Of a stretch of DNA of 64,000 nt, positions 30,493 to 64,000 are shown piece after piece. Position numbers and translations under genes: made by a program. How positions within the stretch are numbered: position 1 is the first letter of the stretch; each line of letters starts with the position of its first letter. The notes beneath the pieces were generated by a model. It was given only the letters and a program-made list of their open reading frames with translations, did no database searches and had not been told where the DNA came from. This stretch comes from Gekko japonicus (Eukaryota), in the NCBI RefSeq assembly GCF_001447785.1, contig NW_015162497.1, positions 413,381-477,380 on the forward strand, read 5' to 3'.

Positions 30493-30694
30493 ACTTGGAT
30501 TCCAAGTCTAAAATCTTGTGCCTAACACTCACCACATACGCTACTTGGATTCCAAGTCTAAAATCTTGTGCCTAACACTCACCACATACGCTACTTGGAT
30601 TCCAAGTCTAAAATCTTGTGCCTAACACTCACCACATACGCTACTTGGATTCCAAGTCTAAAATCTTGTGCCTAACACTCACCACATACGCTAC
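30493..30694. repeat. Perfect tandem repeat, 4 x 50 bp
   Basis: Unit ACTTGGATTCCAAGTCTAAAATCTTGTGCCTAACACTCACCACATACGCT, identical copies, abutting the gap. Confidence 0.95.
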
Positions 30695-55700: not shown

Positions 55701-57485
55701 AAACTGCTTTTTGGGAAAGCATGTTAAAATATTCTAAGAACATAGTCAAAACAGTGTCAAGAATATTTGCATCAAGGTTTTGTATTGTACTCATACCACT
55801 ATCTACTGGCTTTGCCTATATTTGTGAAATGTAATTTATATCAGGATGAATGTTGTCTAGAATAAGAAATTTGCATTATAAACATTATAAAAAGTATAAC
55901 CAAGAGTGTTAAAGTTATAGTATAGTGGTTTTCTTTAGTGAGTTCATTTTTCCCAATTGTAGTTGATACAGCAGCTGGTGAAAACCAATATGGCTGTCAT
56001 TAAAATGATAGTTTCTGCATATTGTGAGCAGTAAATATTTTAAGGATTTGGTGGGGTTATCACTATATCAATCAATAAGCAGCTTCCACTAAAGATCTAA
56101 TACACTGTTTGCATGCTGATGCTAGGACTCAGTGTTCACAACTGCTAAAATGTAGCTGGAATTCTAGAAGCTATGCTGTTCTTTGAATCAGTGGGCTTCA
56201 GTATCTCTCCACCCCACATGGCCCTTTAATAGAAGAATCAGCAAAAGTCTGCTAATATACTGGCCAGCTACTGCTGCTGTTACTTGTTGCAGTGTTTTTC
56301 TCCTCATTGTTGCCTTCTCCAGTCATCAACCTGATTTTAGAAGGACTCTGTTCTGCATCTTGTGCTGCCTAACCTCCCACTCAAATCCTAGATATAATTC
56401 TTGAGGGCAGGAATACATCAGCATCTTCAGTTGACAGTCTGATGCAAACAATGCAATACAGCTGGAGGTGTGACAAGTGAGCAATTTCATCAGCATATAG
56501 GCTGTTGTAGGGTGAGTTTAGTCCATTCCAACAGCACAGGGAGCTGCAATTTATGCTTTCCACTGTTCCAAGCTTGTTGAATGCTTCTCTTGTTTTGTTG
56601 TTGTTGTCGTTTTGTCTTTTTCCTTGCATCTTCTTATCATTCTTGTCTGCCTGTAAGTAATATATCCTGAGATCTCCCTGCTGCTTGGAAGGCCTATAGC
56701 TAGTTAATTCTTTTTGCAGTTGTATTGTTGTACTGAACTTTATTGAATGTAGCTCTGCATGTGTGAGCTGGTTTATTTCTCTAACCTCTGATAACACACA
56801 TGCAGGACAGACTTCCATGAGGATATGTGCATAATGGCAACCTGTTGATGGTCAGAGAGTGCATGATCACAGATTTTTGGTGGTACTATTAATTACTAAG
56901 TCCAGCTGTCTGGGGACTTTCCCTGACCTCCAAACAGGTAATCAGTGTTGTAATTGACAATTAGACACACATTTCTGTACCCTGTATGAGGCTTTATAGC
57001 CAGAGTAAGTGCACATGCTACAAGATATGAGGGCCTGAAGAATAAAATGAGGGGTGTTTTCCCCCCAGGGATCCCCCCCCCCCCAGTTTTTCTGGCTGAA
57101 AATAACACTGAAAAGAAACTCCTATGAAATATTTTCTGTTTTAGAATGAGTAAAATTCTTCTTAAGCCAAGGTTTTCCACATTCAAAATGTATAGCATTG
57201 AAAAAGTCTGAGGATATTTTTTCCCAATTTTTGCCAATGGAAAACTTGGTACAACCGACTTGTCTTACTTGTTGTGACTCTGAGTTTCTGTCCAAGCAAT
57301 GCATTTCCTTATGCCTTCACCTCCCCCCCCCCCACACACCTAAAATGGGAAATGGGAAAAAATCAAAATACATGTGTTGTGATAGCACAATCAGTTTGCA
57401 ACTTTTTCTCAAATATTGGGTATATTTGTCATCTTATACAAAATGAAGATATTTATACTTTTAAATTCCATAAATATTCCAAGTA

Positions 57486-59285
57486 GTCATTTCCGGTTGA
57501 TGGCGGCGCACTAGCAGTCTCACCTCCCGGACCTCCCGGGGGTGAAGCTGCACTCCAGCCGAAGGAGGGGGTACGCAGGTTCATCACCCCCCCAGGGACC
57601 CGGCTGAAGGGGCTCTGGCCATGGGACTCCTGAGAGGTCGCCTCTTCGCCGGCGCAATGCCGGGGAATTGAGGCGCCTCTCCATTCCGATGGTTCTTCGA
57701 GCTCTGAGGCCGAATGGAACTAAGCAACACCGACCGGGGCAAGTGCAGGAGGTCGAGCGAGAGAAACAGAGCTTAAATGAGGTCTGATGACCAATTATGA
57801 ACGTGAATCCAATTAAAGCGTACTAGTTAAAATGAAAAGAAAGCTCCCCACCCCACGGAACAGAAAGCGAGGCGAGTGGGGGAGGAACGCCTCCCATGTG
57901 CACGAACCTTTAAGCGAATTGGAGAGGGGGAGCAGAAGAGAAAGTGAACAAAACTGTTGAGAAAGACTTGCCAAAGCAAGCGTGAGCGTATAAGCGCATA
58001 TTCAGAGACTTTTAAAATACTGGCTAAAGTAAACAATCTATAAAGATGGCGGGGAAGAGGATGGAGAAAGAGAAACTTCTAAAAGCTAAAGGAACTGAGA
58101 GCCCAAGACCGGAAGGAACCAATGAGCTGGCAAAGACATTGGCGGAATCCATGTGCCCCCTGCTGGATCAGATGAATAATCTCAAGGAGCAGTTGTCAAC
58201 AATGAATCAGTGTATCACCACTCAGCAAAAACAGTTGAATGAGACTCTTAAAATGATGAATCAAACAGCTAAGAAGGTGAAAGAAGTGGACACCACTGCC
58301 CAAAGGGTGAAGAAGAAAGTACAAAAACTGGAAAAGAAGCAAATCTCCACGGAAGATCAGCTGTTACAACTACAAATGGAAAAAGCTAATATGATTCTTC
58401 ACTTCCAGGGCATTCCAGAAACTAAGGGAGAGAATCTGAAGGAACTGATGAGTGAAATACTAGCCCCAGTGACAGAGATGAAGGCAGAATCCTTGCTGAG
58501 CGATATGGATGTGGTCTATAGGTCATATTCAGGATATATAAAGAAAAATAATCTGCCTGGGGAAATAGTGATAAGATTCTCAAAGAGGCATGTGAGGGAT
58601 GCAATTCTGAAAGCGGCATCTGGAGCACCCTTGAAAGTTGGAGACAATACTATCAGAATTTTAAAAGACATTCCATTTGAAATAAGACAAAGGAGAAAGA
58701 AGTACAAAGATTTAATTCTTTTTCTCCAGACAAATGCAATTGGATACAGATGGCTAACTCCAGAAGACGTAACCTTCAAAATTAAGGACAAAAAGAAAAA
58801 GATTGACTCTGTTCAAAAAGCACGGGAATTTTTAAGAGTCCAGCTGGGAGAGCCAGAGGAGGAAGAGAAAGAAGGGATGGACAGCAAGTCCAGTGGCGAG
58901 CTGGACTCGGGGTCTTCTGGAGAGGACTCTCTATCAGAGAAAGGGGCAGCTGCCCCTAAAAGTCCTTATAAATTGCATAAAAGACTGGACAAGGGAAAAT
59001 GAAGGCTTGAAGGACTCTGAATTGTGCCTTTGAAAATATTGACACTAGATGCTTAGGGGTCTTTCTTGTTAACAGTTAAATTTAAGATTTGAAAAAGATA
59101 ATACTATACTTGACTCAGTTCATAATGGGACTAGCGTGATTGAGAGATAACGTATGTTAAGCTAATTTGATGATCTCCTCTCTTGGGTTTTTAGGTAGTA
59201 GTGGGTATCTTTTCTTTATCCCTAAATGTAGTCCCTTTCCTTTTTTCTGTTGTAGTTTGTAGTCTTAATAAAAATGCAATTAAAT
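57486..59285 (+). mobile_element. ORF1-only L1-derived retrotransposon (half-L1, HAL1-like)
   Basis: L1-type 5' end TTCCGGTTGATGGCGGC, CpG-rich 5'UTR of about 560 nt, intact ORF1, about 265 nt of T-rich 3'UTR, AATAAA at 59267; no ORF2. Confidence 0.75.
58046..59002 (+). CDS. L1 ORF1p (coiled coil + RRM + CTD; Transposase_22 family), 318 aa, intact
   Basis: AAGATGG Kozak context; heptad-rich N-terminus; NMILHFQGIPE, DVVYR, PGEIVIRF, IRILKDIP...RRKKY, YRWLTPE motifs. Confidence 0.88.
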   Translation: MAGKRMEKEKLLKAKGTESPRPEGTNELAKTLAESMCPLLDQMNNLKEQLSTMNQCITTQQKQLNETLKMMNQTAKKVKEVDTTAQRVKKKVQKLEKKQISTEDQLLQLQMEKANMILHFQGIPETKGENLKELMSEILAPVTEMKAESLLSDMDVVYRSYSGYIKKNNLPGEIVIRFSKRHVRDAILKAASGAPLKVGDNTIRILKDIPFEIRQRRKKYKDLILFLQTNAIGYRWLTPEDVTFKIKDKKKKIDSVQKAREFLRVQLGEPEEEEKEGMDSKSSGELDSGSSGEDSLSEKGAAAPKSPYKLHKRLDKGK

Positions 59286-59814
59286 GCCTAATGTCTGTGT
59301 GATTTTATTTAAACTCATAAAATTTGCCTAAATAACTGTACATGCAAATCCCAGTTTTGATGGGGTCATGCAAAAGTAATATCTGGTTTTACTGGAAGAA
59401 CATTTTTAACTGTGGGATATTTTGTAAGTTACCTTTTTTCAAAATAGTTTTCTCATTTGTTACAAATGTAACAACTCAAAGAAGACATTAATATTTCTTT
59501 GGGGAGGGAAACAAAGCCTTCAGTTTGTTCAGTGGCTTGTAAATTCCTTAAGCTAAGTTAAAGTTTGTTATCAAATTGATACAGCAAAGCAAAGTTAAAG
59601 ATCTGTACAACAGTGTTAACAAGGTTGTTGCATTTTCCATTGAGACATGAACAATTGATGTAGTCTTATATCAATTGATTTAGATTTTATTTTAACCTTC
59701 TGTCAATATTAGGGTTTTGTGTAGCTCTCCCACAAGCAATCTGTAGTCTGATCTTTGTCATTCATGTTAGCATACATTTTAAACACAATATTATATTATG
59801 GCCAAAAAACCCTC

Positions 59815-60020
59815 CACTGTGGTATTGGGATTAGAATATTGGAATTGGATTGGAGAGACCCACGTCCAAATTTTCACTCTTTATCACAAAAGCTTCCTGG
59901 GTGGCCTTGGGTGTGTCACACATACTCAGGCTAAGCTACCTCACAGGATTCTTGTGAGGGTAAAATTGAGAATAAGAGAATGACGCAAGTTGCTTTGCGA
60001 CCCATTGGTAAGAAAGGTAA
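59815..60020 (+). mobile_element. Old Squam3/MIR-type SINE
   Basis: CTGGGTGGCCTTGGGTGTGTCACA..CTACCTCACAGGATTCTTGTGAGGGTAAAAT. Confidence 0.6.
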
Positions 60021-61883
60021 ATGAGGATTACAGTTTCATTGTTTTGTCACAGTATATAGGGATACGTTCTATATAGCGATACATTTGATAATGGAGTATG
60101 AGAACACCATAACGGGGAGTGCAGATTAAGGAGTGGAACTATATAGATGAGGACTGGTTTAATCTTCAATGACTGTCAGTTGTGTCCCAGAATGCATAGT
60201 ATGCAATGTGGCATACACCTGAGAGATCATTAAGTCTGATTCTCTTCTCAGTATAGTAGAGTTTGATAGTCAGATTTATTCCCCATCCCAGTGTATTACT
60301 TTTTCCCGTACAAATGGATGACTACCACTGATCCTTATTAGATGCAGTAAAATGCTACAGTTGGGTACTGTGTTTTTCTGGGAGCAAAACCTATTCACCC
60401 ACCCATGCTGGTGTGTGTCCAGGCCACTTTGAGCAGGAGGGGGTTTACACTGTCTCTCTTTTCACTAAGCCATTTCCTCCTCCTGTGGCAGGAAACACAG
60501 GACCAGAGAACTGGTCTTTGGAGCTGCTGTTCTCCAGGGAGAAAACCAGTTTGCTTTTGAGAAAGGAGGTCAAGGGGAGGTTTGTGATTCACCAGCTCTA
60601 CCCACCTATTTCCTCTCTCACTTGGCATCACTATCAGCTCTTACTGTTGTCTGCCCCCCGCCGCCCACCCCCAGATGTACATTGGCAGAAGAAGTCTTCT
60701 AAGAAAATGAGGAGGATACAACAGTTGATAGCTGATTAGGACAGAGGTATTCATATATAAATATAACAAATTATTCCTGGACCCTCCCCAGAATATGAAA
60801 TAGGTTGATAACTCCAAAGAGCTTGCAGATCTCTCCCCCTGGAGCTTTGTCAAAATGAGCAGTCTTCAAATTTCATAGTTTGTAGCACATACATCTGCAT
60901 AGAAAACAAGGGTGGAGGGAAGGGAGGAAGAAAAGTCATTTTTCCTGTTTCTTCTGTCCCCTAACACCTTCTCCCCAGTTAGTCTACATTCACTTGTTTC
61001 AAACCCCAGCAATTATTTTGTGCAGATTCCTCTTGGCATTCCCTGCTTTGCAACCCTCGGCATCAAGTTGCAGACACTGAGAGATGATGATGCTTTCAAA
61101 GTCTGCTGGATGCTTTCCTACTCTCTACTCTGAAATAATTCCCACTTACATTAACAGATGTTTCAAAAAGATGTTCAAGGTAGCATTTTTGCAGTGCTCT
61201 TAATAGTATCCTCAGTACCTTAAAGCATAAAGACTGAACGTCTGCAAAGAAATGACCTGTTGTAATAAAATTTATCAACTCCAAACTGTTCCCCCCCCGA
61301 CTGTCTGTAAAATATTTCTCTATAACAGACAACTCATATAAAAGAAATGATATTGCAACATGAATAGTTTACAAGCAGTTATCTGGGATTACCTCAATAA
61401 CCTGTGATCTACTTCTTATGTGTAATCAATCTATCTCAAGTTCACATGGGGGGGCACCCTTTATATTACCTGCAAATATTTATTTTATTACACATGGAGT
61501 AACAGATGGAGGAACAAATAAAATTATATTACTGCATTTATCTCCCTCACAGATTTTAAGATACTGATGTAGATTGGCTAGTTCTTACGTTCAATTTAAA
61601 TATTGCACTCCTCATGCAGAGCTTTTTTCCCATCTGATGTTTGCAGGCTGCTCGCTGCTTACTTTGGCCTAATTGCACTGGGGGTATGTATACTAGCACT
61701 GCATTTTTGTGGGCTGGATAGTGCTGGCAATGATGTGGGTAATTCAGTTAATAAGTTACATTCAGATGCTGAAGCAGTACCATGCAAAAGTAATTTTCAC
61801 AAACTACCATGTGGATGATGTAATATTTAAATAAGTCCTTCTATCTGGTGTATATTTGTGTGATAGCCTTAAAATGTTTCAGA

Positions 61884-62619: not shown

Positions 62620-63543
62620 CTATGCCGCTTGCAACACCGCTTGTCCCACAATTGAATGCTGATGAAGACGAACATCGAGGGCATAATGCCTCACAAACGT
62701 GTGATGTGTGGCCCAAGTAGCTGCGTTGCAGATATCTTCCAACGACACACCTCGCAGGAAGGCTGTGGATGCTGCCACTGCCCGGGTAGAGTGTGCTCGT
62801 AGCGGACCCAGGAGCGACTTGTTGGCTAGCATATAGCACAACTTAATAGTCTCCACAATCCACTTGGATAGACATTGGAACGACAGCTTCTTCCCTTGAG
62901 AGGGTAGAGCATAAGAGACAAACAAGGCCGGAGATTTCCAAAAAGGCCTTGTTCGATTTAAGTAAAAGAGTAAAGCTCTCTTGACATCCAACGAATGAAA
63001 ACGGCATTCTTCCTCCGATGAAGGAGACGGAAAGAACACTGGAAGAACAATGTTCACTTGCAGGTGAAACTCAGAAACAACTTTCGGCAGGAAAGAGACA
63101 TCTGGAGCCAATGTGACCCCATTATGATGAAAACTCAAATAAGGTGGGTCACAGTGGCGTGCCGATAACTCGTCCATCCTCCTGGTGGAGGTAACTGCGA
63201 CTAAAAAGGCTGTCTTCCACGACAAAAGCTGTAGACTACAAGTAGCCGTCGGTTCAAATGGTTTGTCCATGAGCCTTGCAAGCACCATGGGTAGATTTCA
63301 CGCTGGCGTGGGTCCACGTGATGGGGGGAAGAGGTGGGTCAGACTTTTAAGAAACTTCTTGGTCTTGGGGTGGGAGAAGACAGAGTGACCGTTAATTATT
63401 GGGTGATTGGCCGAAATTGCAGCTAAATAGACCTTCAGTGAGGCACAACTGAGTCCTGGGTCTAAACGAGACAATAAGAACCCAAAGATTGCCATCAGGT
63501 CAGATGGTGGTGGTGGGAATCCCAATGAGGTAAGGTAAGACAA
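62620..63543 (-). pseudogene. DIRS tyrosine recombinase, interrupted by one in-frame TGA (63298-63300)
   Basis: KTAFLVAVTSTRRMDEL...RAHSTRAVAAS...AATW...TFVRHY catalytic motifs; track ORFs 63298-63543 and 62620-63288 are in the same frame. Confidence 0.88.
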
Positions 63544-63624
63544 GAATTTCTTCCACTTCCCAGTGTAAAAAACTCGGGTAGACGGTCTGCGACAATTCTG
63601 TCTCTGACCAATTCTGTCTCTGAC

Positions 63625-64000
63625 CTATTCTGTCTCTGACCTATTGAAAAGGATCCTCCAGATTGTGAGCATGAGACACTTCACATCGTGATGCAGAATC
63701 CGACCCTTCTCTGCGAGGTGGAGGTCTGCAGCTGGGGGAAGGTGAATGAAGGAGCCCTTGGATAGGTGGAGCAGAATGGAAAACCAATGTTTTCGGGGAC
63801 ACCATGGTGTCACTAAGAGACAGCGTGTTGTTTTCTGCATTAACTTGACTAGTACTCTGGGTATTAGAGGAATTGGAGGGAAAAGGAAGACGTGACCACG
63901 GGACCAGAAGACCATCTCCCAGAGATAGGGGATCTATCCCCGCACTGGAGCAGAACAGGTGACATTATCTGTTGCTGCGTGTCGCAAACACGTCCACCTC
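63625..64000 (-). pseudogene. DIRS DNA adenine methyltransferase-like domain, disrupted
   Basis: VDVFATRSN upstream, then FLFPPIPLIPRVLVKL...LLVTPWCPRKHWFS. Confidence 0.75.

What the first reader, a model, noticed from the sequence alone, without database searches (positions are those of the whole stretch)
57486..59285. Complete ORF1-only (half-L1) element with intact ORF1p
Seen: an L1-like promoter end (ETS-like TTCCGG, YY1-like ATGGCG), a CpG-rich 5'UTR, an uninterrupted 318-aa ORF1p with an acidic/Ser-rich tail followed by a basic end, and a short UTR with its own AATAAA; no ORF2 sequence follows. L1 copies usually lose the 5' end, so this is the opposite pattern. Inference: a non-autonomous HAL1-type family that supplies its own RNA chaperone and borrows ORF2p, a prematurely polyadenylated L1 transcript, or a candidate for L1TD1-like domestication. 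No clear TSD or long poly(A) is visible.
Basis: partly seen in the sequence, partly recalled or inferred. Interest (0 to 1): 0.7.

Follow-up and report, generated by a model that had tools for sequence, protein, structure and literature searches.

The report
Lizard half-LINE-1 retrotransposon copy
This is one slightly clipped copy of an abundant, likely lizard, family of jumping genes that carry only LINE-1's RNA-packaging gene and likely borrow the copying enzyme from complete LINE-1s; that lifestyle is known from mammals, but here it forms an old, recently mobile radiation whose members end in a small predicted RNA hairpin that the complete LINE-1s we sampled lack.

Summary
Observation confirmed, with one correction. 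Window 57491-59284 holds a lizard-type L1 promoter end, a CpG-rich 5'UTR and an intact 318-aa L1 ORF1p (Foldseek top hit: human ORF1p, E 7e-9), with no ORF2. It is one copy of a family with thousands of candidate copies. Siblings share both ends, then add a ~20-nt hairpin, a short A tail and a target-site duplication (27 of 39; control 5 of 1482). This copy lacks all three, so it is not 'complete'. No ORF2 start follows ORF1 in 167 clade loci (control L1s: 19 of 23). ORF1 was under purifying selection between subfamilies (dN/dS 0.13-0.20). Four ORF1-only lineages form one clade (100/99), and one has copies 98-100% identical, so the radiation was recently mobile. A terminal hairpin occurs in 145 of 153 ends, with different stem sequences, and in 0 of 10 L1 ends. 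Premature polyadenylation is rejected and domestication is unlikely. Verdict: a HAL1-type non-autonomous L1 derivative, a known kind. This scan has already reported such elements in this genome and in others. The hairpin is the most testable new lead.

The parts
57491..59284 (+). ORF1-only (HAL1-type) L1 derivative, one copy; lacks the family's terminal hairpin, A tail and TSD
   Evidence: Sibling matches start at 57490-57495 in 37 of 39 and end at 59280-59284 in 38 of 39; sibling tails
57491..57505 (+). 5' terminal promoter motif (TTCCGG ... ATGGCG), of the lizard clade-1 L1 type
   Evidence: resembles the consensus GACTTCCGGTG-N8-ATGGCG in PMC5381506 section 9, with a shorter spacer; most siblings read GAC just upstream, this copy does not
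57491..58045 (+). CpG-rich 5'UTR (internal promoter inferred)
   Evidence: 32 CpG, o/e 0.80, GC 54%
58046..59002 (+). ORF1p, 318 aa, intact
58112..58387 (+). Coiled coil (one predicted helix, aa 23-114, heptad pattern)
   Evidence: AlphaFold2 H23-114; a/d hydrophobic fraction 0.76 in the best register
58388..58663 (+). RRM domain (about aa 115-206)
   Evidence: 2w7a, rmsd 3.1
58679..58843 (+). C-terminal domain (about aa 212-266), lower model confidence
58847..58999 (+). Acidic/Ser-rich then basic tail, predicted disordered; also present in ORF2-bearing L1s of this genome
   Evidence: pLDDT under 50; alignment
59003..59284 (+). 3'UTR
59172..59206 (+). 3'UTR block conserved across lineages X, Y, Z and the mini family
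59267..59284 (+). Two poly(A)-signal-like hexamers (AATAAA 59267-59272, ATTAAA 59279-59284); the second reads AATAAA in most siblings and lies just before their hairpin, so it is the likelier signal (inference)

Best explanation
The stretch is one copy of a many-copy, ORF1-only L1 derivative that likely spreads by making its own ORF1p and borrowing endonuclease and reverse transcriptase (ORF2p) from complete L1s; this copy has lost the family's 3' hairpin and A tail and is likely a dead end. Shown: defined 5' and 3' ends; A tails; 9-20-nt TSDs; pyrimidine/purine (L1-like) insertion sites; no ORF2; purifying selection on ORF1 between subfamilies; one clade of four ORF1-only lineages; a near-identical young subfamily. 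Inferred: (1) the CpG-rich 5'UTR is an internal Pol II promoter; (2) ORF1p trimerises and coats its own RNA in cis, which explains selection on a gene that could otherwise be borrowed; (3) ORF2p from a co-expressed L1 primes on the A tail; (4) the terminal hairpin helps 3'-end formation or ORF2p capture; (5) this copy lost its tail and TSD through priming in the internal A run with target-site loss, an endonuclease-independent insertion, or a later deletion.
For: Family size: 4727 and 3986 first-look candidates, 40 scored each. Ends: 37 of 39 share the 5' start and 38 of 39 the 3' end. TSD of at least 9 nt in 27 of 39, against 5 of 1482 mismatched pairs. Across 40 sites, T/C at -1 in 32 and A/G at +1 in 34. 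ORF2 start after ORF1: 0 of 167 clade loci against 19 of 23 L1-clade entries, one locus counted twice. An unbiased pick by the hairpin gave 28 of 30 family members at 68-91% identity; the other 2 are the mini family. dN/dS, net between subfamilies: 0.13 (0.10-0.19) at kappa 1 and 0.20 (0.15-0.27) at kappa 3; within subfamilies 0.39 and 0.53; 38 of 43 copies used. Tree: 20 ORF1-only proteins on one branch, 100/99, apart from 10 ORF2-linked ORF1s. Young family: 28 of 129 rows with one identical score; the 20 fetched are 98.2-100% identical, each with an intact 308-aa ORF. Fold.
Against: The helper L1 is not identified. No sampled L1 shares the 3' tail and the closest L1 ORF1 is only 38% identical, so trans-mobilisation by L1 rests on insertion hallmarks, not on a sequence link or an assay. 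All genome searches score only the top candidates, so a rare ORF2-bearing parent could be missed. The L1 sample came from a single Pfam search. This copy has no TSD or tail. Within-subfamily dN/dS is below 1, partly because 30 loci came from a protein search that favours intact frames. RNA evidence is family-level only.
Confidence: 0.9

Rival explanations
1. An ordinary bicistronic L1 whose transcript was polyadenylated early, or whose copy was cut after ORF1.
For: This copy ends abruptly with no tail or TSD. A few clade copies have ORF2 sequence close by.
Against: Siblings end at the same place with hairpin, A tail and TSD. ORF2 start follows in 0 of 167. Of the 8 loci with nearby ORF2 hits examined, three are insertions that split another LINE's ORF2 (L282, L238, L241); the other five are opposite-strand hits or internal pieces without the ORF2 start. 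In this genome's L1s, ORF2 begins within about 200 nt of the end of ORF1.
Confidence: 0.03
2. This particular locus is being domesticated as a host gene (L1TD1-like), or was itself a source element.
For: Intact frame. Copy-specific differences are 9 synonymous to 7 non-synonymous, against 31 to 83 in 7 siblings (Fisher p 0.039, uncorrected; p 0.039 again after removing letters shared with other subfamilies). One 133-nt contig from run X1 (depth 2.7, RNA status a guess) matches only this copy among the loci fetched.
Against: It is one of 8 copies and was picked for being intact, so the p value does not survive correction. 10 of 42 siblings also have open frames. At window-specific sites covered by raw reads, the reads carry the sibling letter (58292: 4 of 4; 58606: 4 of 4 in run X11). 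No identical daughter copies: a 31-nt specific word occurs at one other place, in a copy 90% identical. The lost tail makes it a poor source.
Confidence: 0.06
3. An ORF1-only element moved by a non-L1 LINE (for example a stem-loop-recognising clade) through its 3' hairpin.
For: The terminal hairpin is in 145 of 153 ends and in 0 of 10 L1 ends. Stringent LINEs recognise 3' stem-loops (PMC5135761, abstract).
Against: A true poly(A) tail after an AATAAA-like signal, 9-20-nt TSDs and YY/RR-like cut sites are L1-type hallmarks (established knowledge). The promoter end and ORF1 are L1-type.
Confidence: 0.04

Closest known systems
HAL1 (half-L1) of placental mammals and marsupials (Smit 1999; Bao and Jurka 2010, not held; seen through passages of PMC5753468, PMC5786205, PMC3627910, PMC8535693)
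   Same: Non-autonomous L1 derivative encoding only ORF1p; keeps its internal promoter; coding capacity maintained over a long time (guinea pig case); many 5'-complete copies.
   Different: The host is likely a squamate (named relatives come from geckos, a monitor lizard and snakes), while the passages read describe HAL1 only in mammals. Independent origin from a lizard-type L1 (inferred). One deep clade with at least four lineages (lineage W is 42-49% aa identical to this ORF1p). Terminal hairpin; whether mammalian HAL1s have one was not checked.
Lizard clade-1 L1 (PMC5381506, sections 9 and 13 and passages)
   Same: 5' end ACTTCCGGT...ATGGCG, long CpG-rich 5'UTR, CC-RRM-CTD ORF1p, AATAAA and poly(A) end.
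   Different: No ORF2. The 3'UTR is unrelated to the sampled L1 3'UTRs of this genome, which are about 50-150 nt and lack a terminal hairpin.
HeT-A and Ag-Sponge (ORF1-only derivatives of Jockey and CR1; PMC5786205 passage)
   Same: Protein-coding non-autonomous LINE derivative.
   Different: Different parent clades. Those are described as possibly bipartite (5' plus 3' part of the parent); a parent-derived 3' part was not found here.
L1TD1 (PMC4161310 passages)
   Same: Derived from L1 ORF1p, with an acidic region.
   Different: L1TD1 is a spliced host gene made of two ORF1 copies and conserved across placental mammals. This locus is one of thousands of copies, with no locus-specific expression shown.

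Membership tests
HAL1-type non-autonomous L1 derivative | Encodes an L1 ORF1p (coiled coil, RRM, CTD) | tested here: met
HAL1-type non-autonomous L1 derivative | No ORF2 in the family | tested here: met
   0 of 167 loci against 19 of 23 control entries; top-scored candidates only
HAL1-type non-autonomous L1 derivative | Amplified as a unit, with defined ends, A tail and TSD | tested here: met
   met by siblings, not by this copy
HAL1-type non-autonomous L1 derivative | ORF1 kept by purifying selection in the source lineage | tested here: met
   net dN/dS 0.13-0.20
HAL1-type non-autonomous L1 derivative | Mobilised in trans by L1 ORF2p | not testable with these tools
   Insertion hallmarks fit; helper not identified
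Named mammalian HAL1 families (common descent) | Shares an origin with a mammalian HAL1 | not tested
   No mammalian HAL1 sequence at hand; HAL1s arose several times; nearest named relatives are squamate
Bipartite non-autonomous LINE | 3' tail derived from the autonomous partner's 3' end | tested here: inconclusive
   No match to the 3' ends in 20 L1 regions; the sample covers one part of L1 diversity
Autonomous L1 | ORF2 (APE-RT) after ORF1 | tested here: not met
Domesticated gene (L1TD1-like) | Single locus under its own purifying selection | tested here: inconclusive
   9:7 against 31:83, p 0.039 uncorrected; multi-copy family
Domesticated gene (L1TD1-like) | Locus-specific expression | tested here: inconclusive
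   Raw reads carry sibling letters; one low-depth contig matches this copy
Domesticated gene (L1TD1-like) | Orthologue conserved in other species | not testable with these tools
   No related genomes held

The most novel reading that the evidence does not exclude
The ORF1-only radiation, a coiled-coil-only 'mini' derivative and an unrelated orphan-ORF family all end in a stem-loop between the poly(A) signal and the A tail, which the helper L1s lack. It is a parasite-specific RNA signal that captures L1 ORF2p in trans and overcomes L1 cis-preference. It has been kept through stem replacement (CCCC/GGGG, CCCTG/CAGGG, CTCTCC/GGAGAG, TTGCCC/GGGCAA) in a single old clade that still moves.
Probability: 0.2. 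Interest if true: 0.7.

Novelty: new member of a known kind. Interest (0 to 1): 0.4.

Why it matters
It extends HAL1-type parasitism of L1, described for mammals in the papers seen, to a likely lizard genome, where it is an old, multi-lineage and recently mobile radiation. A near-identical young family with intact ORF1 makes two standing questions testable with natural sequences: why a non-autonomous element must encode its own ORF1p, and how it gets ORF2p despite cis-preference. The terminal hairpin is a concrete candidate for the second. The copy in this window is itself unremarkable.

Tried and rejected
The search for homologous proteins: 0 of 3404 candidates at E 1e-3 or better; the profile search then found 1166. 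Pfam on the single protein gave nothing over cut-off; 12 of 30 alignment members hit Transposase_22. Rfam: 0 matches on 57300-59500. PF08333 is not in the library. The ESM Atlas gave no answer for the mini protein or the 62.6-kb ORF, so both stay unassigned by that route. Search for the autonomous parent: the family tail matched none of the L1 3' ends in 20 regions; an outgroup query (P0014) returned 25 loci, and the 13 of them that were new and readable were all ORF1-only clade. The one L1 ending in a hairpin (L146 = L290) carries the tail of a different, ORF2-less family, so it was left out of the 10 L1 ends, as were L153 and L159 (end interrupted or unclear). Run search: no RNA holder listed among indexed runs. 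No common fold of the whole 3'UTR across lineages, only the terminal stem. Branch-by-branch substitution counts were not obtained; selection was estimated from pairwise and net divergences, so no single branch is dated or tested. No complex prediction was sent, since a homotrimer would pass by likeness to solved structures. Literature: HAL1 with gecko, 0 papers; HAL1 with squamate and retrotransposon, 1 paper, in which 'squamate' occurs only in a reference; HAL1, ORF1, non-autonomous and lizard, 1 paper, mammalian HAL1 only; LINE-1, reptile, lacking ORF2 and ORF1, 0 papers; further listings. Repbase, Dfam, subscription papers and all supplements were not seen, so the family may already carry a library name.

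Full report
OBSERVATION. The window holds an uninterrupted 318-aa ORF at 58046-59002. Its best solved relatives are human LINE-1 ORF1p (E 7e-5 alone; E 1e-12 with a 30-sequence profile). The AlphaFold2 model (mean pLDDT 66) shows one helix at 23-114, an RRM, a CTD and a disordered tail from 268, and all 11 rows that Foldseek lists at E under 0.001 are human ORF1p chains. The 5'UTR has 32 CpG (o/e 0.80) against 0.05 in the flank. It opens with TTCCGG...ATGGCG, close to the lizard clade-1 L1 consensus (PMC5381506 section 9). No ORF2 is found in the window. Named relatives of the protein come from geckos, a monitor lizard and snakes, several of them misannotated, so the host is likely a squamate.

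FAMILY. Searches with each end returned 4727 and 3986 first-look candidates, of which 40 each were scored. Of 39 siblings, 37 start at 57490-57495; in the other search, 38 of 39 end at 59280-59284. Beyond that point siblings carry a C-rich/G-rich segment, a short A tail and the target duplication. A TSD of at least 9 nt was found in 27 of 39, against 5 of 1482 mismatched pairs. Across 40 sites TSDs are 9-20 nt, with T/C at -1 in 32 and A/G at +1 in 34 (exact-match boundaries are approximate). The window copy has no hairpin, tail or TSD, so it is clipped. One sibling (L101) has a TSD directly after the A run with no hairpin, which suggests that priming upstream of the hairpin does happen.

NO ORF2. 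After removing duplicates, an endonuclease start follows ORF1 in 0 of 167 clade loci (X 81, Y 13, W 29, Z 44) and in 19 of 23 L1-clade control entries, one locus counted twice. Thirty loci chosen only by the hairpin word (416 exact hits) gave 28 family members at 68-91% identity and 2 copies of a shorter sister family. Eight loci with nearby ORF2 hits were examined: three are insertions that split another LINE, and five are opposite-strand or internal pieces.

SELECTION. 43 near-full copies fall into star-like subfamilies with end branches mostly of 0.02-0.05. On 38 of them (L016, L027, L028, L043 and L091 left out as unassigned), net between-subfamily dN/dS is 0.13 (0.10-0.19) at kappa 1 and 0.20 (0.15-0.27) at kappa 3, and similar in coiled coil, RRM-CTD and tail. 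Within subfamilies it is 0.39 and 0.53. The protein was therefore needed by the elements that produced copies. The within-subfamily values are pulled down by hidden substructure and by sampling that favours intact frames.

RADIATION. RNA loose ends led to subfamily Y: 249 exact hits, 95-99% identity among most copies, about 70% to the window, same tail. Inserts found inside L1 copies and a database protein led to lineages W (42-49% aa) and Z. Within Z, 28 of 129 rows share one score, and the 20 fetched are 98.2-100% identical over 1.2-1.85 kb, in different flanks, each with an intact 308-aa ORF. In a 75-protein tree the 20 ORF1-only proteins, with two unnamed database proteins, sit on one branch (100/99), apart from 10 ORF2-linked ORF1s; the root is by midpoint only. 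One old loss of ORF2 fits this but is not proven.

TERMINAL HAIRPIN. A stem of at least 4 bp lies between the poly(A) signal and the tail in 56 of 60 X, 23 of 23 Y, 22 of 22 Z, 14 of 15 young Z, 16 of 16 W and 14 of 17 mini ends, against 1-9% of shuffles and 0 of 10 L1 ends. The stem sequence differs between lineages. Caveats: ends were located by motif, and for W the motif includes the first stem letters; copies are related, so the independent cases are about three stem types; the L1 sample is small and from one search. A further ORF2-less family ends in a fourth stem. No Rfam family matches. The function is untested; 3'-end processing is as likely as ORF2p capture.

EXPRESSION. At 97% likeness, 93% of the reads laid on the window stretch in two runs go on unlike it, and covered window-specific sites show sibling letters. 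One 133-nt contig at depth 2.7, from a run whose RNA status is a guess, matches only this copy among the loci fetched. On a Y copy 2958, 163 and 1654 reads were laid (some on an upstream flank repeat), with a 3' bias and both mate directions. The family is present in RNA; transcription from its own promoter is not shown.

THIS COPY. 10 of 42 siblings also keep an open frame. Its own differences lean synonymous (9:7 against 31:83, p 0.039 uncorrected), a weak hint that does not survive correction for eight copies. It has no identical daughters.

MECHANISM. Most likely (0.9): transcription from the internal CpG promoter (inferred); translation of ORF1p, which coats its own RNA as a trimer (inferred from homology and selection); capture of L1 ORF2p and target-primed reverse transcription at the A tail (inferred from TSD, tail and cut-site pattern; helper not identified). 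This matches the model given for mammalian HAL1 (PMC3627910 passage).

KNOWN OR NEW. It works like HAL1 and meets every testable feature of that kind; descent from mammalian HAL1 is neither tested nor expected. Papers seen: PMC5753468, PMC5786205, PMC8535693, PMC4161310 and PMC3627910 as passages; PMC5381506 as passages plus sections 9 and 13; PMC5135761 as abstract and outline; PMC1920257 as a search listing only; Bao and Jurka 2010 not held. Searches for a reptile HAL1 found none, but repeat libraries were not searchable. This scan has 58 notes with these words in at least 20 genomes, and 16 fit 'HAL1' in this genome; these are unchecked notes, not support. Verdict: new member of a known kind, interest 0.4.

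Noticed in passing
L161-L180 (e.g. L180:1626-2126, minus strand): A 1.6-kb 'mini' sister family (568 first-look candidates) with TSDs and the same last ~110 nt and hairpin. Its ~167-aa ORF keeps only the ORF1p coiled-coil half (30-37% identity to window aa 15-83; hhalign E 2e-4, probability 47) and has no RRM. Net dN/dS 0.26 (0.11-0.68) at kappa 1 and 0.37 (0.15-0.96) at kappa 3, on 18 of 20 copies.
   Followed up: partly
L265-L284: A very young ORF1-only family, 1.85 kb, 98.2-100% identical, with an intact 308-aa ORF; likely still mobile.
   Followed up: partly
L285-L309: Another A-tailed family with a terminal hairpin of different sequence and, in longer copies, a 150-170-aa frame with no ORF1 or ORF2 match; one L1 copy (L146 = L290) ends in this family's last ~45 nt.
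   Followed up: partly
L146, L158, L160: 3 of 20 fetched L1 regions contain ORF1-only elements inserted in ORF2 (four inserts in all). Enrichment over chance was not tested.
   Followed up: no
L004, L009, L014, L023, L024, L030: Several siblings keep both ends but have internal deletions of 130-730 nt at different places in ORF1; junctions were not examined for splice signals.
   Followed up: no
window 62620-63915, minus strand: Broken frames that look like a DIRS-type tyrosine-recombinase retrotransposon (recognised from recalled motifs; Pfam gave no significant hit).
   Followed up: no
window 59314-60500: Run X12 alone has low read depth (up to about 4.5) on the flank 3' of the element, with almost none on the element; source unexplained.
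   Followed up: no
P0001, P0004, P0011, P0074: Public proteins matching the L1 ORF1p profile are annotated as 'apolipoprotein A-IV-like', 'myosin-6-like' or as part of a 1616-aa 'PRDM9' model; likely misannotations or chimeric gene models.
   Followed up: no
L142:914-2314; L141 region: One L1 ORF1 has an internal duplication of about 84 aa, and one locus has two L1 5' halves in tandem 2.3 kb apart.
   Followed up: no
window 30493-30694: Four perfect copies of a 50-nt unit directly after a run of N; possibly an assembly artefact.
   Followed up: no
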